Shown here: positions 13,362 through 50,779 of the stretch, piece after piece
Position numbering within the stretch: position 1 is the stretch's first letter
Layout of the letters: every line of letters begins with the position of its first letter
Assembly (NCBI GenBank): GCA_017654855.1
Contig: CM030333.1
Span: forward strand, 558,001-622,000
DNA: 64,000 nucleotides
Origin: Podospora anserina
Taxonomy: Eukaryota
Direction of reading: 5' to 3'
Made by a program: the position numbers and the translations under genes
The notes under the pieces: model-generated
What the model was told of the DNA's origin: nothing
Database searches by the model: none
The model's input: the letters and a program-made list of their open reading frames with translations, nothing else

Positions 13362-16256
13362 CTACTCCGGCAAAGAAGCAGCAACCAACTTCAACATCTC
13401 CTCCGTACCCTTCCCCGCATTCTTCGGCATCTTGGCCACCCGCTGCCAATACTCCCCATGTCTCGGCTCCGCCAAAACACACCTGCTCACCAACCCAACC
13501 CTCTTCTCTTCCGTCCCATGCTGCAGCAAAAACTTGTAATACCACGCCCACGTATCCCCATGGTCCGTGTCCAGCTTCAGCGCTCTCTCAAACCATTTAT
13601 CCGCCTGCTCGAGTTTCCTCTCTTTCCAGAGGATATACGCCGCCGTCACCATCAGCACCGGGTCGTTCTCCACTTTCTTCATCGCCTCCGCCAGCAGCGA
13701 TTTGCGCTGGGTTCGCTGTTCCAGGTGAAGAATCCTCTCCGCCCAGAGGAGACCGCTCTTGGGCATCTGCTGCAGGGCAGTAGCCATGAGGGTCTTGGCC
13801 TGAGTGATGTTACCAGCGCGACGCTCAAGACGGATGAGCTCAGTCCACAGCTCCGCCGATTTGGGAACTGCCTGCCTTGCTCTGTCGAGGACGGAACGGG
13901 CCTTGACCACGTTGTTGAGGCGCTCCTCCAGACGGGAGTACAAAAGCCACAAGGGGACCGACGAAGGAACGGCGCGGACACCGGCACCATATGCCTCCCT
14001 TGCCTGCGCCGGCTGGTCCATGTCCTCGTAAATCTGCCCCTTCATCATCCAAAGCTTTGGAGCATTAGGGAAGAGGCGGAGGGCGTCAATGACGAGGTCA
14101 AGGGCGGCTTCGCTGTTGCCTAGCTGGCGCTCAAAGGCCACGGAACGCATCCAGACACGATCGGTAGGGGCGTTTTGCCGGGCAGTCTTGAGCAGGTCGC
14201 GGGCTTGATCGATAAAGCCGTTGTCAGCCTCAAGCTTGACAGCCGCAAGCCAGATGTCCTCGTTATCGGGGTTTTGCTTGAAGGCACGGGCCAGAACGCG
14301 ACGAGCCTCGTTAATCTCGCCTGCCTTTTCGCGGGCCAGCATGAGCCAGAAGGTCTCTTGGTGAGGGCAGGCCTCGACGGCTTTTTCAAGCGCGTTCCAG
14401 AGGTCCTCCTTGTTGCCGTGCTCTCTCTCCAGGTCAACGGCGGCGAGGTAAAGGCTCTTGCTGTTGGGGAAGACACGAAGAGCATAGGCGTATATCGCCC
14501 GGGCGGTGGCGTACTTTTCGCGGCTGATACTGGCTTTGGCATCTTCCATCCAGAGCTCCTTGCGGTCGTCGTCCTCGTCCAACCCCCAGCCGAGGGTCTC
14601 TTCGATGATATTGCTGCAGGTGATGACCGCGCCTTCTTCCTCGCACTTTTCAGCCTCAGCAATCCATTCTTCACGCTTGGGCATGGCGTTTTGCTTGGCC
14701 AAGAACTTAACGGCGTTCTTCATGACTGGTCGTCTTGCACCCTCACCAAGCTGCTCCTCCAGGCGAGCGGCCGCAATCCACAGCTCGTGGGAGTTGGTGA
14801 GCTTCTTGACGGCCTTGTTGAGCACCTTGCGAGCATTCTCCGGGGTCTCTAAATGTGCCAGTCTCAGCCACAAGTCGAGTGATTCGGGGATAAGCTCAGT
14901 GGCCTTGGCTAGCAAAATGCGGGCATCTTCCACATCTTCTTCCAGGTTCACCGCATGAATCCATAAAGCCTCGGATTGTGGGTTATGATCCAGCGCCTTT
15001 CGGATCACCTTCTTCCGTGATCTTTGGTCATTCTCCAGTTTCATGGCCGCCACCCAGAGCTTCACCGACTTTGGGTTGTTGCGGATAGCTTCAGCCGCAA
15101 TAATCTTGGCATTGTGAGTGTCGTTGATGTTGATATTCTCAAGCCAGATATCCTCATTCTTGGGGCAATGCTGGCACCCAGCCGCAATCAACTTGCGGGC
15201 GGCACCCGGTTTCCCTGCTGTCATCTCCAATCTTGCCGCAGCCATCCAACTGGACGCCTGTTTGGGGTTTGAGTCTACAGCAGACTTCAACATCTTTCTG
15301 AACTGCTCAATATCACCGATACTCTGCTCTGCACCTTGGGTGCTGGCTAGTGAGGTCAAGTAACCCCTCGGATCCAGACTCGTGGCGCTACCTGCCGTAG
15401 CAAGCCCGCTGGTTTGCGATGTCTGCTCAAGTCTTGCCTTCAACACCTTGTCGCGGGCGGCACCGATCTTTGCAAAATCCGTCGTCGTTTCGGTTCCTCC
15501 GGGAATAGCGCTGGTAGCAGTCCCATCGTCCGCAACTGTCGTGCCAAACTGACCCTGGTCTCTCGCAGCAGCTAGCACGCTGTCGGGCACAGCATAGAAT
15601 CTCTCCATCCTCGCTTGTCGTGCCCTCTTGGTCTTGCCGGTGGCATCCTTTGCCTCGGGTATGTTCGCCCAATCTTCGTCGGTGAGCTCGGCCAATTTTC
15701 TCTTGAGCCCGGCAAACTGCTGCTGAATCTTTGGGTTCTGTCGCTCGTATTCTTCTCGTTCGGCTTTTTCTCGTGCTTCCCTGTTCGCAAAAAGTAGACC
15801 GTTGGTATTTCGTTCTCCATTCATCTAAGGGTATAAGACGATAAACCGAGTGCTTTTGGGTGTACGTGTGGGAAGGAAAGCGCTGGGTTAGACTTGAAAA
15901 GGGGAGAGTACTAACCTTTGCTTTCTCCTCCTGTTTGCCATCTTCTCGTCTATATCTTCCCAGATCTTGTCTGCCTCTTCATCCTCCTTATCATAGAAAC
16001 CGCCGGCAAACAGGCCAACCTCGTTGTCTGGATCCTGATATCGAGCGGCGTCATCGGTGTCATCATCTTTCGCATTGTCGCCGCCGAGTCCCAATTGCGC
16101 TGTCCTCTTTGCGACGGCAGCCTTGATTTGGTCTTCGCTGGGACCTTCTCGCGCCGGACCCAAGTCAGATCTGGTGGTAAAGCCAGTGGCACCACGCCCG
16201 AGACCAGCGACGTAGTTCTCGGGCGCAGGCATGCTAAGGAAGTCCCTCCGTGACAT
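13362..16256 (-). CDS. PRP6: Pre-mRNA splicing factor Prp6 (Prp1/Zer1), U5 snRNP HAT/TPR protein, ~919 aa
   Basis: N-terminal PAPENYVAGLGRGATGFTTRSDLGPA, many HAT repeats, C-terminal EPRHGEYW. Intron 15781-15915. Confidence 0.95.
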
Positions 16257-28971: not shown

Positions 28972-30862
28972 ATGGTTCACCAACCACCCCCTCTTCCACT
29001 AGGTTCAGACGGCGAGGTCGACCTCCGCGCCCCCCTGACATCAGATACCATCCTCCAAGTCCGCACCGGCCGAATGGCTCCTCTCGCTCCCTTGAGCATA
29101 AAATCCGGCATCAACAAAACTTTGAGGTCTGGACCTGTTCAAATCACAAAGTTGGGGTTGGAAGGTGACGAGCAAGATCCTACGTTTCATGGGGGTGTTG
29201 ATAAGGCTGTTCACGGGTGTATGTCCCCTTTTTATTTCTCGACAAAAATGTACCTAAACAGTGGCTGATAAGACGAACTACAGACTGCGCAGACCACTAC
29301 AAGTCCTGGCAAAAGGAATTCCCCCAAGCCGCCGAGAGGTTCGTCCCCGGGGGGTTCGGGGAGAATCTTGTTCTTGGCTTCATGAACGAGAGGAATGTTT
29401 GCATAGGCGACATCTTTGAGATATCAGACTCAAATGCCGTGTTGCAGATTTCACTTCCAAGACAGCCTTGGTAGGTACCATTTACCCCTTAATCCACCAA
29501 CCACACAAAACCCCTTCTTGCTTTTTAACAGTAGTGTTATATATATAAAGCTTCAAACTCAACCACCGCTTCCACCTCCCCAACTTCGCACCCAACACCT
29601 ACCGCCTCTCCCGGACGGGGTACTACTTCCGCGTTCTCACTCCCGGGCTCGTCGAAGCAGGGAATAAACTGACTTTGGTCTCCCGCCCCCACCCCGACTG
29701 GACTATTGAGCGCATCCAGCGGTACCTCCATAAGGAAACAGACAACTATGACATGAACCTCGAGCTTTCTCAAATAGAAGAGTTTGGGGCCGAGTGCAAA
29801 GACAACTTCACCCGGCGAGTCCTACGAGCGAGGGCAAAAGCCAATAAAAAACCAAAGGAGAAGTGGGTGCCCTACCAGGTGGTAGAAAGAAAGGAGCAAA
29901 CGAAGAGGATAACTTCCTTTGTCCTCGAAGCGGTTGACAAATTTGCGGAAGGGGAAGAGAAGGAGCTCAGCCCAGGTGCTCACGCAAAGATCAAACTGGG
30001 AAAGGGCCTCGTCAGGGCGTATTCCATCGTCGACGGTGACAAAGAGCGGTTCCAGTTGGCTGTTGCCCTTGAGGAAAAGAGCCGCGGTGGGAGCAAGTAC
30101 CTCCATCACGAGGTCAAAGTAGGGGATGTGCTACAAGTGGGGGCTATCACGGCTGCGGTGCCGACTGTTTCGGCGGCTAGTCACCATGTTTTTGTCGCGG
30201 GTGGCGTGGGTGTTACGGCGTTTTTGGCAATGGTATGTATGTCTTGGAAATGCAGCTTTAGGTCCCAACCAACCAGGCTGACAAAGATTTTCTACAAGGT
30301 CGAGTTCTACAAGAGTATACACTACAGCGTTGTCCTGCATTACGCCGTCCGATCTGCAGATGATGTGCCGTTTCGAGACCGGATCGAGGAGCTGAAGAAG
30401 GAAGGACAGCTGGTGCTCTACGACAAGGCTGCCGGGCAGAGGATGGATATACGGCAGATCATCCAGAGTAGGGGTTGGAACTCGCAGCTGTATTTCTGCG
30501 GGCCAAAGAGATTGATGGATCAGGCCGAGAGGGAGGTCAAAGAACTTGGTGTTTATCAAAAGGAGGTGCACTACGAAGCCTTCGAGGCAGACCTGAGCGG
30601 GGATCCCTTTGAGGCTGTCGTGGCGAACAAGGGCGGGGTGGTTGTCAAGGTCGGGGAAGACGAAACCCTGCTCGAGGTCCTGCAGAAGCAGTTTGACCAG
30701 CCCGACTCGAGCTGCTGTGTGGGGAACTGCAAGACTTGTCTGGTTGAGCTCAAGGCTGGCCGGGTTGATCACCGCGGGACGGCTCTGACGGATGACGAGA
30801 AGGTCACATCAATGTTGTCGTGCGTCAGCCGTGGGGTTGGGCGTATTACCATTGAGATCTGA
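28972..30862 (+). CDS. MOSC-domain / FAD-NAD-binding / 2Fe-2S ferredoxin oxidoreductase (YiiM-like plus PDR/VanB-like), ~559 aa
   Basis: HGGVDKAVHGY, GFGENL and LPRQPCFKLNHRF (MOSC); RAYSI, SRGGS and AGGVGVTAF (reductase); SCCVGNCKTC...LSCVSR (2Fe-2S). Introns 29219-29283, 29471-29550, 30233-30298. Confidence 0.9.
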
Positions 30863-41179: not shown

Positions 41180-42556
41180 CGTGAGAAGGCGCGCAAAGTA
41201 AACTCAGGCTAATTAGATGAGTAAGTAAGGCACTGAGACCATGACTGAGAACATCGCCACCATCAACAACAACGCCGCCGAGGATGGAGAATGGGGTGAA
41301 AGAGCAAAAACTCGAGATGTCAATTCGATAGTTCCATGGTGGTGTAGTCGATGGAAAATCCAACCCGGCCTGGTTTACGAATACATATGCATGTCAGCAG
41401 CACCTCTTCCCAAACCCTTCTCGTAGTTCCCGATCGAGCTGTTTGGTGTGAACACCCCCCATGGAAATAAGGACCCAGATCACCGGCCGGGGTTCTTCAA
41501 TGCCCGTGGACAGGGGTCATGGAGGGGTCTTGAGCGCGATGGAGCTGTCGTTGCTACCCTTCCTCTTCCAGATGAAGATGGTGGCTGTGGGTTGGCCGAC
41601 CGCAGTCACTCCCAGTTGAAGAGCCAATAGTGGCAGAGGATGCACGCCTCCCGTCTTTTGCCCTCCAACCCGGATAGATGGCAATCTATAAAATGGATTT
41701 CCGTAAGGCGGTGCTCGGTAAAGGAATTGTAAATGCAGAAGGAGGAGGCCAACGGCTGCTGGTCTTCACATGCTAGTTTGTTGGTGTTGGTGAAAGCGCC
41801 AAGGGTTACTTCAAGAATGTCAGCAAAGTTGAGCTTCCGACGGGGATCTCCAAGCGTGGTGTATGGTTCGCTGATACAAGGTGAGAGCATGCCGTAAGGT
41901 GAGAGCTCACACCTCACCTCAGACGAACCATAGGTAACCCAAGTCGAAAAAGGGTCCTATTTGTGAGAGCATATTGGCGGGGCTCTAGGATGATTAGAGA
42001 GATAATGGGGGTCGTGGTTGTTCGAATCCCATGGACGAGAGTGGTCACTGTAAAGATGTTATGTCGTTATCCTCATCCAAACACCCATTCCTGCCTCGTC
42101 TCTCGGCGTAAGAACGCACCGAGTGGCCGTGAAATCCATCATGAAATCAACGACATCACTGATCTCCAGATATGAATTAAGGTTCTGGGGCACCCCAAGG
42201 GCACGGTGCTGTCAAAATATAGTGCGGGCCCCCAGCGGGGTACCCCAGCGCTAGCAGCTGGCGATTGCTATACCGCATAGGACAGCCCCGTTAAGTGCGA
42301 TTTCGGCGTGGCTGCCCCGCGCACTAGGGCCAGATACCGACAAACTGAGCCGGGGAACCCCTCCGCCGCCCACCCCCCGTCCCAGCATCAACACCGCACA
42401 TCCAGCCAACGACGGGCGTCTTCAAAGGGGTCACTGCAACAAAGTTGAATGCCGCACTGCCGCAGCTTGACGTAGTGGGCTCCTTTTCCACATACTCCAC
42501 CCACACAACCGAAACTCGATAAACCGATTACCCATTCCACGATAGCCGTCGCCAGC

Positions 42557-44989
<2,433 letters not shown>

Positions 44990-45595
44990 TTATTGCATAT
45001 TAATAGAATTCTGATATTTCCGCGGATGGAGAAGATCAACATTATTTCTTCCGTTTCTCTTTGTTTTGCTGTGCATTTGCTGAGAAGGATTGCTGTTTGT
45101 CTGTTGCTTTGTGGAATTCCCATCACTTGACGGCTGGGGTTGGAGGACGAATTGTATCATTCCAGTTAGCTGGATCTGTGTGTTTGATACCTGTCTGTAG
45201 TCGATATCGGGGCTGTGCCCCCTATCTGTATCATCGACATGCAATGCCGGTAAGGCCGCACCCGCCTCATAGGCAAGCATGTTGAGGTGGACCCATGGGG
45301 GCACAGGCTGCTGTTTTAGCTTCACAGCATGTGTTGTGTGAAGGAGCCTCTCCAATCATCTCCAATTACGGCTCTTACAACTCGTGGCCCTGTCATATGG
45401 AAAGCGAACCGACGAATCGGATGTCACCATGTTAATCTATCCTGTACTTCACACAAGAGCTGAAGCACTACTACCCGTCTCCATAAGGATGATCTGCTCT
45501 AGGTGGAACGATACTTATATCGTGCACCCTCATAAGGCTGGCCATTCTGGCATGAGCCATGATCCAGGCTGACTTCAGCACACTGAGCTGTAACA

Positions 45596-47838
45596 ATGGC
45601 AACTAACTCACCACGATATGACGGACACCAATACGCACAGGTCTCAGGACCACCGTCGCCGCAAACCACGGCGACAGGAGGGCGCGTTTCCATGGAGCCG
45701 CCGTCAGTGCTCCTTTCACCGCCGAGTCGTTATGCCAGTCCAGTATCACCTTTCCCCCAGACCGAACACCACAAGAAGTCGAGCAATATCACATTCGTTC
45801 CCATCGTCGATACGGACGAAGATCCGCAATATGGCCACACGCCAACGAGAAAACCAGTCACTCGGACTTGGTCGGCAATTGGCAACTAGTGGCCTGAGAT
45901 CGCCAGCTCCTTGCTCAGTCTCTTGTGTGTCCCAGCCCTCGTTATCCTCTTACGCAGCTATGATGACCGCCCGCTCTCAGAGTGGCACCTCATTATCACA
46001 CTCAACACCGTGATTGCTTTCATATCCACCATCTGCCGAATGTCCTTCATTTATCCTCTGGTACAGGCCCTTGCTCAGCAGAGATGGAACTGGTTCAAAA
46101 GCCCTAGGTCTCTAGACGATTTTCGTGTATTTGACGAGGCCTCTAGGGGGTCATTGGGCAGTTTGTTGTTGATGATTAGAATGAAGGGGAGGTAAGCAAT
46201 CATGATTTCACCACGCATGATTGAATGGTGCTGGATATTGACAATATTTGTATGAAGGCCGCTGGGAATTGTCAGCTGTCTCGTCCTCATCACAAGCATC
46301 GCTACCTCGACTCTCACTCAGTCTGTCGTCACTTACCCAAGTCGCATGGTGCCTGTCATGGGCAATGACACGGCTGTTGCGAAAAAAGTTGACGAGTTCT
46401 ACTATGTCTCAGGCAACCGCGCTAGTAAGTAGGATGCCGCTGTTGAGACAGCGTAACTCAGCTAACATGTGGCCAAGATGGACGCTTGTTTCCCCTTCAG
46501 CAAGCCCTACGAAGCAGCGGTTCTACCACACCCACACAACCTGTGCCCTATCTACCACCCACCTGCCGAACTTCCGAGTGCACATGGCCCGAATTCAACA
46601 CCATGGCAGTTTGTGTAAACATGACCAGTGCGTGCGGAGTACAACCCCGAGCAGAAATTCCCAGGCTAATCACTGCGGGCAGATGTCACAAGCCTCCTCA
46701 CCTACGACGACCTAATCCCAGGAACATCCGAGTGGCACAGAGGCGGCAGACCAAGAACAAACGTCAGCCTACCCAACGGAGTCAGCTTCCAGCCCTACCC
46801 CTACAGAAAAGCCGGTCGACAGATCGGTCTCGATGTTGGCATCGGAGCAGGTCTCACCTCCAACTGGTCAGAGCCGCAGCGAGAACAGGAGATTGCCTCC
46901 CTCTCCTTCAACGGAACAGAAGGCCAGAAAGCCGAGCTGACGAGCGTTTTCCTCTTGTATTCTGATCCCATCCGGGCGACAGAGGTGATGTTTCACTACT
47001 GCGTCAACAGATACAACATGTCAATATCGGAAAACGTGCCCAAGATCCAGCTTTTGGAGTCTAGTACAAAGGTCGAGTATCACGATGCTGAACACCCTCA
47101 CATGTACAAAACTCTTGTCGATCCTCAAAACTCGAGTGTGACGTACAAATTCGGGTCGACGTCTAATCACTTTCTTACTGGGATGCTGAGGGATTTTTTC
47201 GTGGAGAATTCCACTGATAGATCGATGATGGGGACGATGAGGGATATGTTTTCTGTGTTGCTGTATCAGCTCCCTTTTTCGAAGGGCAACGACGATAGAG
47301 AGGAGAGGGATGAGCAGGGGTTAGATGATTTTAGGTATGATGTTGTTAGGAATATGTCGTTGAATGTGGCTATGGGGTTGACGAATGTGTATGTTTTTCC
47401 CTCCCTTTATTATTTCCCCCTTTGATCGGCTGGCTGATTTGTACGGATGGCAGTATGTTTGACAGCACGACGCAAGCTGTTTCCAGTCTGGTCAGTGGCA
47501 CGGCTTGGCAGGAGGAGAGGTATATCTCTGTTCGGTGGGAGTGGCTTTCTCTTGTGGCGGCGCAGATTGGGTTGGCGCTGGTGGTTTTGGTGTTGGTCAT
47601 GGTCCAAACTGCGAGGTTGGGGGTGCCGGTGGTGAAGAGCGATATTTTGCCGGCGTTTTTTGCTGTTGGGTTGGCGGAGAGGGCGGAGGCTGAGAGGGGG
47701 CGGGTGAGTGATGTTGGGTTTTCTCCAGAGGTGAAGAAGAACGGGGCGACGCCGGAGGAGAGCTTTGCTTTGATGGGAGAGCTGCAGAAGACGCAGAAGG
47801 GGAAGTGGGTTTTGGAGGGCTTGTATAGGAGGAGGTGA
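45596..47838 (+). CDS. DUF3176-like membrane protein with one in-frame TAG (codon 98); candidate A-to-I-edited gene, or a young pseudogene
   Basis: Introns 46192-46257, 46425-46477, 46628-46682 and 47389-47453 give a 2004-nt frame. Motifs: ITLNTVIAFIST, QQRWNWF, LDDFRVFDEASRGSLGS, CRTSECTWPEFNTMAVC, GTAWQEERYISVRWEWL, PVVKSDILP. Only lesion is TAG at 45887-45889. Confidence 0.8.
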
Positions 47839-48491
47839 TCTTGGGAGTAATAGGGAGAAGTAATGGTAGGTATGAGGGAGCCTTTTTGGAGCTGCCTGAT
47901 GGTTACCTACCTATCGAGTTGATATGCCTTGAGGCTTGTTGACCGTCTTTCAAGACCTATTTAACATGTGATGAGGCCCAGAAAGACGATTGGAAGAATC
48001 TGCGTTGAAGACCTTTCGGTAGCTTCAAGTAGGCCCCTGTATAGTGTCTAAGGTATTTCAACCTCACTGTTACCTAGTATAAAATTGATTGGACAATGGG
48101 ACAAAGGACTTTGAGCCAAAGTCTGGCAGTCGAAGAGAGATGAATGAACCGACCAATGAGCCCACAGACGGCTGCGAACTTCTAATATACATAGCCGAGC
48201 TATGGAAGTGCCTTACTTTATTTTCCGTCTTTTATCTCATACTCAGGCAATATCAAATGTGGCCGATTGTACCTCCTGTTGAGTCACGCCGTTCCACAAA
48301 CTGAAGATATATTTGCTTCGGGGACGTACTTCGCCATCAAGCCGTGAAGTTGTATATCATCACGGATTGGTAAGTAGGTACGCCAGCGTCTTCAGACGTG
48401 ATGATGTCTCCCAACCAAGACACCACGGCACTTAAAAACCCCCTCGGGGCAATTTTTTGGAAACCTGTCAACCTGCAGCACAGTTACCGAT

Positions 48492-50510
48492 ATGGCACAA
48501 AACACTACACCTCATGAGAAAAGTCCCAATATCGACATGATTCATCACGCTTCACTACGGTCGCTAGGCACGATGATGCCTGGCCCGATCGAAGCCTCGT
48601 CCATGGTTTTCCTTCCAGCCAGTCCACATAACAGTCCAGCAACGGTTACATTGTCCGCAAAAAGATCTGTTTCTACACTCCGGACAGCAGTCATTAATTG
48701 GGGGCAGGCACTGACTAGCATTGCTTTTAGTCTTTGCCTGTGGCTTCCCATAATCATCGGTATATTGCACGTTTATGATGGGCGCCCTCTGGCGGACTGG
48801 CTGCTTCCAATCACACTCAACGCCCTTATCGCTTTCATTTCAACTGCCTGTCGGACGGCTTTTATCTTCTCATTAGTGCAGGCTCTCGCTCAGCAACGGT
48901 GGTATTGGTATGAAAGCCCAAGGTCACTTGGCGATTTTAGTGTTTTTATGAGGCTTCGAGAGGAATATGGGGAAGTGTGAGACTGATGGGTACAATGAGA
49001 GGAAGGTAAGAAGCCTACACCAGCCTTAGAATTTGGCATTCCATAACTAACACTTCCTATACAGGCCGCTGAGTAGTATGACATGCCTTGTTTTAGTCAC
49101 AAGTCTTGCGACGTCAACCATGACTTAATCCGCCGTCACTTATCCCGTCCGTTTTATTCATGTTAATGACGTCGAGTCTGCTGTGATTGCGAGATGCATT
49201 GGGTCGAGAAACATGAGGGCATTGAATCCGTAAGCAACACTTCCTAAAGCGGCGGGAATAATACAGTTTTGACCTGGAATAAAGCTATAAATTCAAGCGA
49301 CTTCTCGTGAGCAGCCCTCTAACTCTGTCATCTCATAATTCGGCATCACGAGTACCAATCTGTAAGACCGCAAAATGCACATGGCCCGAGTTCAGTACCA
49401 TGGAGGTCGGCGCGAAAACTGCAGGTAACGAACGGGATAAAACTCAAGCCAGTAAAACCAACCCCCGACGTCTCAGGAACCTTTACCATGGCCGCAGGGA
49501 TCACTGACCCATATTGGTCTCGTTCAAGCCTCTCTTCGCTGTACTTTAATGGGACTGATGAACATAAGGTGCAAATCGCAAGTCTTTTTTGCCCTGGCAG
49601 ATTTGCCGTTCTATCGCGCATACGAAGTCATATTCTACGACTGCGTCAACCGATACCAAGTATCAGTATCTGAAAACATACCAACGACAGAACTGATTTC
49701 GTCAACCGCTCATACAAACGTCGGTGACGGTGGGCAGTGGTTGATCGACAAAGAAGACCCTCTTATCACATACCTGGTTTCCAAAGGCTATAGCACATTC
49801 ACGTCCAAGAACCTGAACGACATCTTCCTCCAAAGCAATGAGTTCGGACAAATGCTATGGGAGTGGTGGTCATACTATAATAATTCAAAAGACGGACAAG
49901 ATTGTACAAGCCAAGAGTTGCATCTTGACTCCGTTATCCATAAAATGTCACAGAATCTTGCTGCTGAGCTCACCAATGAGTATGTCAGACTTTCGCTTCT
50001 CAGCTTCAAGCTTCCCAGCGCAAAAATGATATCGACCTCTACCCACTCATCCGAGCATCTCAGCTAACAATCTTGCATCACAGCCTCCTCGATCCCAGGA
50101 GTGAGGATGTTAGCCTCGCGTTGGGAACAGCATGGCAACAGGAGATCTAGGTCTCAGTCCGTTGAGAGTGGCTTTTACTTATCGCCGCACAGGTTTATCT
50201 ATCTCTCATTGTCCTCATACTGGTCATAATCCAGACATCAGATCTCGGCCTCCCCGTGGTCAAGAGCTCCATCCTGCCTGTTTTCTTTGCTGTTGGAATG
50301 GCCGACAGAACGAAGATAGAGAATGAACATGAGAGAGGAGCTGCCGGATTAGCCACCTCTGGCTTGACAGACGAGGAGAAAGACATTGGCCCGGAAAAGG
50401 CATCTAAACGGGGCAAGAAGATGGACAAAACAACACCCAAAGAAAGCTACGCCTTGCTTGGGGAGCTACAAAAGACACAGAATGGAAAATGGGCTCTCAG
50501 GAGTGTGTAA
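48492..50510 (+). pseudogene. Decayed tandem paralog of the DUF3176-like gene
   Basis: Colinear similarity (ITLNALIAFIST, QQRWYWY, CTWPEFSTM, PVVKSSILPVFFAVG, ELQKTQNGKW). Lesions: 1-nt frameshift at ~48947, TAA 49126-49128, TAG 50148-50150, TGA 50163-50165. Confidence 0.85.
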
Positions 50511-50779
50511 CGGGAAGGCTGACGATAAGCGTTCCACCAGAGCTTCATCTCGATCTAATACAACCAGATATTCTAACAAGACAATCAACAAGGGATGCGA
50601 ACACTAGTATAAATATATACAAAAGGCTGGACAATATATACAATGATAGGCCTTACAGCGCAGCACACATGGAGGATCGATATTAACGAAAGTGAAACAT
50701 CACGTTCTCAGCCCCAAACATTTCTTCTGGGAGATCTATTACTCGTTGCCTTGTCCAGCAAGTTCGACTCTATCCTGCC

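What the first reader, a model, noticed from the sequence alone, without database searches (positions are those of the whole stretch)
45887..45889. Single in-frame TAG at a Trp position in an otherwise intact gene: candidate sexual-stage A-to-I restorative editing site
Seen: the gene at 45596-47838 splices across four canonical introns into one 668-codon frame. Its only interruption is GGC AAC TAG TGG CCT GAG ATC (G-N-*-W-P-E-I), just before the first hydrophobic segment. The tandem paralog has ATT AAT TGG (I-N-W) at the matching position. Established: Sordariomycetes carry out ADAR-independent A-to-I mRNA editing in fruiting bodies, which turns premature UAG into UGG (e.g. Fusarium graminearum PUK1, AMD1) and favours U at -1 and purines at +1/+3. 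A45888 has U(-1), G(+1), G(+3). Inference: vegetative cells would make only a 97-aa Pro/Ser-rich peptide, and the full 667-aa membrane protein would appear only in perithecia. Alternative: a recent nonsense mutation (TGG>TAG is also CpA>TpA on the opposite strand, i.e. RIP-like) or an assembly error.
Basis: partly seen in the sequence, partly recalled or inferred. Interest (0 to 1): 0.82.

Follow-up and report, generated by a model that had tools for sequence, protein, structure and literature searches.

The report
Stop codon at conserved tryptophan, Podospora
A membrane-protein gene of the dung fungus Podospora anserina carries one real stop codon where every relative has tryptophan, in a sequence setting that fungal fruiting-body RNA editing favours, but whether editing repairs it is still untested.

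Summary
TAG at 45887-45889 is codon 98 of a 667-codon, five-exon gene (Podospora anserina Pa_2_780, Pfam DUF3176) and is its only interruption. RNA contigs of four public runs confirm all four introns and carry the TAG in the mature mRNA.

The codon replaces a Trp that is W in 11 of 11 aligned family proteins and in 73 of 75 metagenomic family loci.

The editing reading is plausible but unproven.
- For: the setting C-U-A-G-U-G-G has favoured bases at 5 of 6 positions by the Fusarium rules. The A lies in a hairpin loop in the ±30-nt fold.
- For: since the split from P. pseudopauciseta, the P. anserina copy shows 4 derived residue changes against 21. It has therefore stayed constrained.
- Against: the RNA contigs keep A in 4 of 4 runs, though their stage is unknown and contigs hide minority variants.
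- Against: P. pseudopauciseta has Trp here, so the stop is not old, and its own copy is wrecked by frameshifts.
- Against: the tandem paralog in the window is a dead pseudogene, not an intact comparator.

Truncated gene models in three other genera cannot count as evidence for a conserved stop.

My odds: restorative editing about 0.45, young null allele about 0.37. If confirmed, it is a new member of a known kind.

The parts
45596..47838 (+). Gene Pa_2_780 (DUF3176 membrane protein). CDS exons are 45596-46191, 46258-46424, 46478-46627, 46683-47388 and 47454-47838: 667 codons plus the stop.
   Evidence: Open-frame enumeration. Spliced RNA contigs use these four introns in 4 of 4 runs. Downstream part is 100% identical to PODANS_2_780. 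Pfam PF11374 E 1.4e-26.
45887..45889 (+). In-frame TAG, codon 98, at the first Trp of the family's W-W-x-E motif. A45888 is the candidate edited base.
   Evidence: Sequence. W in 11 of 11 aligned proteins and in 73 of 75 metagenomic loci. TGG in 72 of those loci.
45886..45892 (+). Setting C-U-A-G-U-G-G (-2 to +4). Bases are preferred at -2, -1, +1, +3 and +4, and neither enriched nor depleted at +2.
   Evidence: Sequence compared with the preferences reported for F. graminearum in PMC9600606 section 6.
45881..45894 (+). Weak predicted hairpin GGC[AACUAGUG]GCC with A45888 in the 8-nt loop.
   Evidence: Seen only in the ±30-nt fold. In the 31-nt and 101-nt folds the A is paired, and no fold is more stable than shuffles.
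45596..45886 (+). Codons 1-97: a Pro/Ser/Thr-rich, predicted disordered N-terminal region. This is all that would be translated if UAG is read as stop.
   Evidence: Composition. The equivalent residues 1-88 of the T. verruculosa ortholog have pLDDT below 50.
45890..45964 (+). First transmembrane segment (codons 99-123), immediately after the stop.
   Evidence: Hydropathy. A helix lies at the equivalent place in the ortholog model.
46040..46042 (+). ATG of Met149, the start of the deposited 519-aa model. Met is a derived residue here (the family mostly has Thr).
   Evidence: P0010 starts MSFIYP. Alignment. Seven other ATGs precede it in the mRNA.
48492..50510 (+). Tandem paralog (DUF3176), a pseudogene. 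It has a frameshift after FSVF, in-frame TAA, TAG, TGA and TAA, and internal deletions. It keeps TGG at the matching Trp (48699-48701).
   Evidence: Sequence. tblastn with Cercophora samala and T. verruculosa orthologs. Pfam hit on its first exon.

Best explanation
Pa_2_780 of Podospora anserina acquired a TGG-to-TAG change at an invariant Trp just before its first membrane helix. The change arose after the lineage split from P. pseudopauciseta.

Shown: the gene is still transcribed and correctly spliced. Apart from this codon it has kept evolving slowly.

Inferred: in mycelium the UAG is read as stop, giving only a 97-residue disordered peptide. In fruiting bodies the Tad2-Tad3-Ame1 deaminase known from other Sordariomycetes converts A45888 to inosine in part of the transcripts. 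UAG is then read as UGG (Trp) and the full 667-residue four-helix glycoprotein is made.

This would make it a young restorative (premature-stop-correcting) editing site. The editing itself was not observed.
For: - The stop is TAG, the one editable outcome of a single change in TGG, at a position that is W in 11 of 11 proteins and 73 of 75 loci.
- The setting CUAGUGG has preferred bases at 5 of 6 positions by PMC9600606 section 6.
- With that paper's own ±30-nt folding window, the A lies in a hairpin loop. The paper's classifier, built on such features, reached AUC 0.96.
- Residue changes between P. anserina and P. pseudopauciseta, polarised with outgroups, are lopsided. In codons 149-667 there are 2 derived in P. 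anserina, 13 in the sibling and 4 ambiguous (binomial p 0.0074).
- In codons 1-148 the counts are 2, 8 and 2. This includes codons 99-148, which would be untranslated without read-through (1 against 5).
- There is no rate excess against C. samala, T. setosa or A. backusii: 22:17, 27:29 and 33:28.
- The mRNA is present, fully spliced and carries no other lesion.
- Published premature-stop-correcting sites are mostly N-terminal or lie before the conserved domain. 50 of 71 such genes have disordered regions, and 16 of 71 are also abundant outside perithecia (PMC10776026).
Against: - No A>G was seen. Contigs of 4 of 4 RNA runs (3 studies) read A at 45888 with no other letters.
- No full-length read-through protein from this species turned up in the protein search; the best N-terminus-bearing hit was the sibling's, at 92%.
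- The stop is not conserved. P. pseudopauciseta and T. verruculosa have Trp, whereas published sites are generally conserved.
- Loss of this gene is tolerated in the group. The sibling's copy carries four frameshift or deletion blocks, and the tandem paralog here is dead.
- A-to-I mRNA editing has not been reported for Podospora in the papers I could search.
- The hairpin is weak and appears in 1 of 3 fold windows.
Confidence: 0.45

Rival explanations
1. Plain young null allele. The TGG-to-TAG change is a recent, fixed loss-of-function mutation in a gene that has become dispensable. The transcript is still made, but only the 97-residue peptide is translated. Any editing is incidental and without consequence, and further decay has simply not had time to accumulate.
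For: - UAG is kept in the contig consensus of 4 of 4 RNA runs.
- The sibling species lost the same gene by indels while keeping Trp at this codon, so the ancestor had TGG and loss is tolerated.
- The tandem paralog in the same genome is a multi-lesion pseudogene.
- A single G-to-A transition is enough.
Against: The stop must be very recent to fit 4 derived changes in P. anserina against 21 in the sibling, and no indel against four indel blocks. The near-optimal editing setting would be a coincidence, although it follows partly from the ancestral AAC TGG TGG. An mRNA with an early stop and four downstream introns is still at depths of 6-37 beside 14-91 for the neighbouring SNF1 gene.
Confidence: 0.37
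2. The deposited model is right. A shorter 519-residue protein is made from Met149 (ATG 46040-46042), which is a derived Met in this clade, and the upstream part is a leader.
For: The deposited P. anserina protein and the models in C. samala, T. setosa and A. backusii all start at this Met. Met at this position is derived, since the family mostly has Thr.
Against: RNA contigs start at or upstream of 45631 and include the upstream ATG. Seven ATGs precede the Met149 ATG, the first with A at -3 and G at +4. The product would lack the first membrane helix. Codons 99-148 evolve slowly in P. anserina (1 derived change against 5 in the sibling). Shared truncated starts can be explained by models copied from the P. 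anserina template wherever a Met is available: all 5 models with Met there start at it, and all 3 without it are full length.
Confidence: 0.08
3. Artefact or other recoding: an assembly or base-call error, a mutation private to one laboratory strain, or translational read-through of UAG.
For: None positive. It cannot be fully excluded that most public runs come from one strain.
Against: 19 of 24 listed runs from 9 studies hold 0.93-1.00 of the sampled words of exon 1. The three laid runs below 1.00 are explained by contigs that start 2 to 41 bases into the query. The deposited reference protein starts after the stop. I know of no read-through motif that fits UAG-UGG-CCU (recalled, not tested).
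Confidence: 0.1

Closest known systems
[quoted passage not shown]
   Same: A single in-frame UAG at a sense position. The site is N-terminal and lies before the conserved domain, with U at -1 and purines at +1 and +3. The protein has a disordered region, the transcript is present, and the organism is a Sordariomycete.
   Different: Editing is not shown here. The stop is absent from a sibling species, whereas published stops are generally conserved (44 of the 77 sites are shared between two Fusarium species complexes). No expression data by stage are available. Podospora is not among the species in which editing has been reported.
CHE1 of F. graminearum, a conserved premature stop edited also in vegetative hyphae under oxidative stress (PMC11169179; search listing and start of abstract only)
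   Same: A premature UAG in a gene whose transcript is present outside fruiting bodies.
   Different: No hyphal editing is visible here in contig consensus. Minority editing cannot be seen in contigs.
Ordinary unitary pseudogenes made by one nonsense transition, as in the tandem paralog at 48492-50510 and the P. pseudopauciseta ortholog
   Same: A disabling change at a conserved codon, in a gene family that is visibly decaying in this group.
   Different: Only one lesion, no excess of residue changes, and transcription and splicing intact.

Membership tests
Restorative (premature-stop-correcting) A-to-I editing site of Sordariomycetes | Genomic in-frame UAG at a position that is a sense codon in relatives | tested here: met
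   TAG at codon 98. W in 11 of 11 proteins and 73 of 75 loci.
Restorative (premature-stop-correcting) A-to-I editing site of Sordariomycetes | A in DNA but G in sexual-stage RNA at that base | tested here: inconclusive
   4 of 4 RNA runs read A in contig consensus. Their stage is unknown, contigs drop minority variants, and no raw reads were on offer.
Restorative (premature-stop-correcting) A-to-I editing site of Sordariomycetes | U at -1 with a preferred neighbourhood, and location in a hairpin loop | tested here: met
   Bases are preferred at 5 of 6 positions. The site is in a loop in the ±30-nt fold but paired in the 31- and 101-nt folds, and no fold is more stable than shuffles. The sequence part is met; the structure part is weak.
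Restorative (premature-stop-correcting) A-to-I editing site of Sordariomycetes | Stop conserved in related species | tested here: not met
   Trp in P. pseudopauciseta and T. verruculosa. Unknown in the other species, whose models start after the site and whose DNA I could not reach.
Restorative (premature-stop-correcting) A-to-I editing site of Sordariomycetes | Coding constraint maintained downstream of the stop | tested here: met
   Relative-rate tests give no excess. Derived changes are 4 in P. anserina against 21 in the sibling. These are protein-level counts only; dN/dS was not possible without ortholog DNA.
Restorative (premature-stop-correcting) A-to-I editing site of Sordariomycetes | Host has the sexual-stage editing machinery (Tad2, Tad3, Ame1) and shows transcriptome-wide editing | not testable with these tools
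   No genome is held for this window. One preprint notes ADAT-type genes up-regulated during P. anserina sexual development. Editing is called common in Sordariomycetes, but Podospora is not in the review's species list.
DUF3176 (Pfam PF11374) | Match to the Pfam model above its gathering score | tested here: met
   93.2 bits against a cut-off of 27, E 1.4e-26, residues 116-198 of exon 1.
Unitary pseudogene | Disabling mutation together with signs of lost constraint (further lesions, raised substitution rate) or lost expression | tested here: not met
   There is one lesion only, no rate excess, and the gene is transcribed and spliced. A very young pseudogene would look the same.

The most novel reading that the evidence does not exclude
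Pa_2_780 is the first premature-stop gene repaired by A-to-I editing to be identified in Podospora, and it is a young one. P. anserina switched the protein off in mycelium with an editable TAG and kept the gene under selection. The sibling P. pseudopauciseta kept TGG and then lost the gene through frameshifts. The pair would be a natural experiment for the idea that editable stops resolve a conflict between vegetative growth and sexual reproduction. A second family member from a metagenome with TAG at another invariant Trp (L078) hints that this protein family may be prone to such switches.
Probability: 0.3. Interest if true: 0.6.

Novelty: new member of a known kind. Interest (0 to 1): 0.45.

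Why it matters
Stop codons repaired by RNA editing in fruiting bodies are established in Fusarium and Neurospora, and whether they are adaptive is currently debated in print.

A young case in P. anserina would have two advantages. It is a genetic model with easy allele replacement, and it has six sibling species more than 98% identical in genes. The origin of such a site could therefore be timed, and its benefit tested directly with TAG, TGG and TAA alleles.

If instead the site is unedited, it is one more recent gene loss in a decaying pair of genes, and the deposited 519-residue model should be flagged as doubtful.

Tried and rejected
- **Whole genome:** none is held for this window.
- **RNA runs:** no RNA holder is listed as such, and all 24 runs carry only a guessed kind. 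Five added runs hold next to none of the words, which is not evidence of silence.
- **Paralog:** 48217-50432 had no cover in the four laid runs. That is no evidence either way.
- **Short protein pieces:** a search for short proteins that would mark a conserved stop in other assemblies found 4 candidates, none scoring.
- **Cluster members:** I could not see which 5 sequences form the cluster of the 519-aa model.
- **Metagenome scan with exon 1:** 148 pattern matches, none related.
- **Metagenome scan with the alignment:** 80 family loci, none an ortholog and none with a stop at this Trp.
- **RIP:** TpA/ApT 0.62 and (CpA+TpG)/(ApC+GpT) 1.22 for the gene, 0.69 and 1.31 for the paralog, the same as the window (0.64, 1.27). 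No RIP signature by the usual thresholds, which I recall from memory.
- **Truncated models as evidence for a conserved stop:** rejected. In C. samala, T. setosa and A. backusii the start coincides with a derived Met149. All 5 models with Met there start at it, and all 3 without it are full length. This is what template-copied annotation would give.
- **Structure:** the model of the T. verruculosa ortholog has mean pLDDT 66.8. Foldseek against the PDB gave 0 matches at E <= 0.001, so there is no functional lead.
- **Earlier findings of this scan:** nothing relevant.
- **Single stops flanked by open stretches:** 15 stops in the window are flanked by 95 or more open codons on both sides. Most sit in introns or off-frames, so that criterion alone is not informative.
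- **Papers:** 13 papers hold 'pa2780' and the 12 listed concern other organisms. Two Podospora papers had no text on editing.

Full report
**What is there.** The window reads GGC AAC TAG TGG CCT GAG ATC with TAG at 45887-45889. I listed all GT..AG combinations that leave a frame with a single internal stop. The combination that keeps the family's Cys-rich CTWPEF motif has these exons:
- 45596-46191
- 46258-46424
- 46478-46627
- 46683-47388
- 47454-47838

That is 667 codons plus the terminal stop, with TAG as codon 98 and the only interruption. Exon 1 matches Pfam DUF3176 (PF11374, 93.2 bits, cut-off 27).

**Which organism and gene.** A protein search with exon 1 read through gave 17 hits among 1334 candidates. 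The deposited P. anserina S mat+ protein PODANS_2_780 (519 aa) is 100% identical to the downstream part of my model. It starts at MSFIYP, which is Met149, the first in-frame Met after the stop. The window is therefore P. anserina or something indistinguishable from it, and the reference annotation already works around this stop. The upstream neighbour is an SNF1-type kinase.

**The stop is real and is in the mRNA.** 19 of 24 listed public runs, from 9 studies, hold 0.93-1.00 of the sampled words of exon 1. I laid four of them (three studies) on 42400-50700.
- All four are spliced RNA: the SNF1 introns are removed, and one run shows a poly(A) loose end.
- All four use exactly my four introns.
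- Their contigs cross the stop with no other letter and no gap.
- The runs with shares below 1.00 are explained by contigs that begin at 45592, 45603 and 45631.

An assembly error is therefore excluded. The same result also means the contig consensus is UAG in 4 of 4 RNA runs. Two limits apply. The stage of these runs is unknown to me, and contigs drop minority variants. A paper that re-used public P. anserina RNA-seq never mentions perithecia (0 occurrences), so much of the older public RNA may be vegetative.

**The codon replaces an invariant Trp.** In the alignment of 18 sequences, every one of the 11 proteins that reach this region has W at the position, in a W-W-x-E motif just before the first membrane helix. 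A metagenome scan with that alignment returned 80 family loci.
- Of the 75 loci whose alignment spans the position, 73 have W, one has F and one a gap.
- 72 of them show TGG.
- None has a stop there.

The ancestral codon was TGG, and one G-to-A change gives TAG.

**The protein.** Hydropathy places membrane segments at about 99-123, 132-156, 200-219 and 568-601. Ten N-glycosylation sequons lie between 235 and 528, and the first 97 residues are Pro/Ser/Thr-rich. A model of the full-length T. verruculosa ortholog (mean pLDDT 66.8) has a disordered N-terminus, matching helices and a beta-rich middle domain. Foldseek found nothing in the PDB at E <= 0.001. DUF3176 is uncharacterised in the papers I could search: 3 hold the term and 1 was listed. 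Read as stop, the UAG leaves only a soluble 97-residue peptide.

**Relatives.** A search with exon 4 found six orthologs among 1230 candidates:

| Species | Length (aa) | State at the site |
|---|---|---|
| P. anserina | 519 | model starts at Met149 |
| P. pseudopauciseta | 643 | labelled low quality; Trp at the site |
| C. samala | 518 | model starts at Met149 |
| T. setosa | 526 | model starts at Met149 |
| A. backusii | 530 | model starts at Met149 |
| T. verruculosa | 680 | full length; Trp at the site |

At first the three truncated models in other genera looked like evidence for a conserved stop. I reject that. Met149 is a derived residue, since the family mostly has Thr. Every model with Met there starts at it, and this includes the T. 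verruculosa copy of the paralog. Every model without Met there is full length: T. verruculosa, the C. samala paralog, and P. pseudopauciseta with Ile. That is the pattern expected if models were seeded by the truncated P. anserina protein. The Podospora species-complex annotation did use P. anserina proteins as evidence. I could not reach the DNA of these species, so the state of their codon is unknown.

**The sibling species is informative.** P. pseudopauciseta has Trp at the site. Its copy nevertheless shows four blocks that read as compensated frameshifts or deletions, at residues 204-222, 478-494, 540-546 and 568-578. Two of these destroy membrane helices.

I left those 49 columns out and polarised the 19 isolated differences in codons 149-667 with four outgroups.
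- 13 are derived in the sibling, 2 in P. anserina, and 4 are ambiguous (binomial p 0.0074).
- In codons 1-148 the counts are 8, 2 and 2.
- The two P. anserina changes at 186-187 (Ser, Leu) are residues common in the family: S in 10 and L in 28 of 80 loci.
- Relative-rate tests against C. samala, T. setosa and A. backusii show no excess in P. anserina: 22:17, 27:29 and 33:28.

Species of the complex are more than 98% identical in genic regions. The sibling's copy therefore looks neutral since about the split, while the P. anserina copy looks constrained for most or all of that time. Because a decaying copy kept TGG, the common ancestor most likely had TGG and the TAG arose in the P. anserina lineage.

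**The paralog.** The tandem copy at 48492-50510 keeps TGG at the matching codon (48699-48701). Against its C. samala and T. verruculosa orthologs it shows a frameshift after FSVF, in-frame TAA, TAG, TGA and TAA, and deletions. It is a pseudogene, not an intact comparator. Neither copy shows a RIP signature.

**Fit to the editing system.** What follows rests on named sections and passages of the cited papers.
- Sexual-stage A-to-I mRNA editing is carried out by Tad2-Tad3 with the stage-specific Ame1 and is called common in Sordariomycetes (PMC11087585, passages).
- It corrects premature UAG in 71 F. graminearum genes and in N. crassa genes (PMC10776026, sections 6 and 10 and passages).
- Preferred bases are C/U at -2, U at -1, A/G at +1, +3 and +4, and G at +2, with C/A depleted at +2. 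Over 62% of sites lie in hairpin loops when ±30 nt are folded. A classifier on such features reached AUC 0.96 (PMC9600606, sections 6, 7 and 14).

The site here is C-U-A-G-U-G-G, preferred at five positions and neutral at +2. In the ±30-nt fold the A sits in the 8-nt loop of GGC[AACUAGUG]GCC. In the 31-nt and 101-nt folds it is paired, and no fold beats shuffles. Part of this fit is automatic: any TAG has U at -1 and G at +1, and the following Trp codon supplies +2 to +4. Podospora is not among the five species a 2024 review lists as having editing. A preprint on P. anserina sexual development only notes ADAT-type genes that rise in perithecia.

**Weighing.**
- For restorative editing: the editable stop type, the near-optimal setting, continued constraint on the whole frame (including codons 99-148, which neither the 97-residue product nor a Met149 start would translate), and intact transcription and splicing.
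- For a plain young null: no G seen in any RNA contig, Trp in the sibling, demonstrated tolerance of loss (the sibling's copy and the paralog), and the fact that picking single-lesion genes selects for very recent nulls.
- A Met149 start is unlikely. The transcripts include the upstream ATG, which has A at -3 and G at +4, and seven ATGs precede Met149.

I put restorative editing at about 0.45, a young null allele at about 0.37, a Met149 product at about 0.08 and the rest at about 0.10. The editing step is inferred, not shown.

**Novelty and print status.**
- No listed paper mentions Pa_2_780 in Podospora: 13 hold the string and the 12 listed concern other organisms.
- The search for P. anserina with A-to-I, RNA editing and perithecia gave 19 papers, none of which by title reports edited sites in this species.
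- Supplementary tables were closed and may hold expression data for this gene.

If confirmed, this is a new member of a known kind, notable for being young and sitting in a tractable model. If not, it is an ordinary recent gene loss.

Noticed in passing
window 48492-50510 (+): The tandem DUF3176 paralog is a multi-lesion pseudogene: a frameshift after FSVF, in-frame TAA, TAG, TGA and TAA, and internal deletions. Its orthologs in C. samala (648 aa) and T. verruculosa (497 aa) are annotated as proteins.
   Followed up: yes
window 43840-44024 (+), SNF1-type kinase gene: Two acceptors are used with one donor. 43840 joins to 44024 in 4 of 4 RNA runs, and 43840 joins to 43949 in 2 of the 4 runs (X12, X14). 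This is an alternative 3' splice site.
   Followed up: no
L078:460-462 (metagenome contig, DUF3176 family): Another family member has TAG at a different invariant Trp, equivalent to W164 of this protein, which is W in 79 of 80 loci. The TAG lies inside an exon block that aligns without stops in its closest relative L043. One more stop lies in a later block, so it may simply be a pseudogene.
   Followed up: partly
window 46040-46042 (Met149) and proteins P0010-P0013, P0015: Gene models in four genera start at the same derived internal Met, and models lacking that Met are full length. This looks like a truncated P. anserina model propagated through annotation pipelines. The N-termini of these deposited proteins deserve re-checking.
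   Followed up: partly
protein P0001 (P. pseudopauciseta ortholog): The ortholog keeps Trp at the site but carries four frameshift or deletion blocks and 21 derived residue changes. It is a decayed copy in a species more than 98% identical to P. anserina in genic regions.
   Followed up: yes
window 14121-14123 (+) and 30131-30133 (-): Two other TAG codons are each flanked by long open stretches in the same frame (280 and 242 codons; 225 and 102 codons). I read the local sequence only and did not test whether these frames are coding.
   Followed up: no
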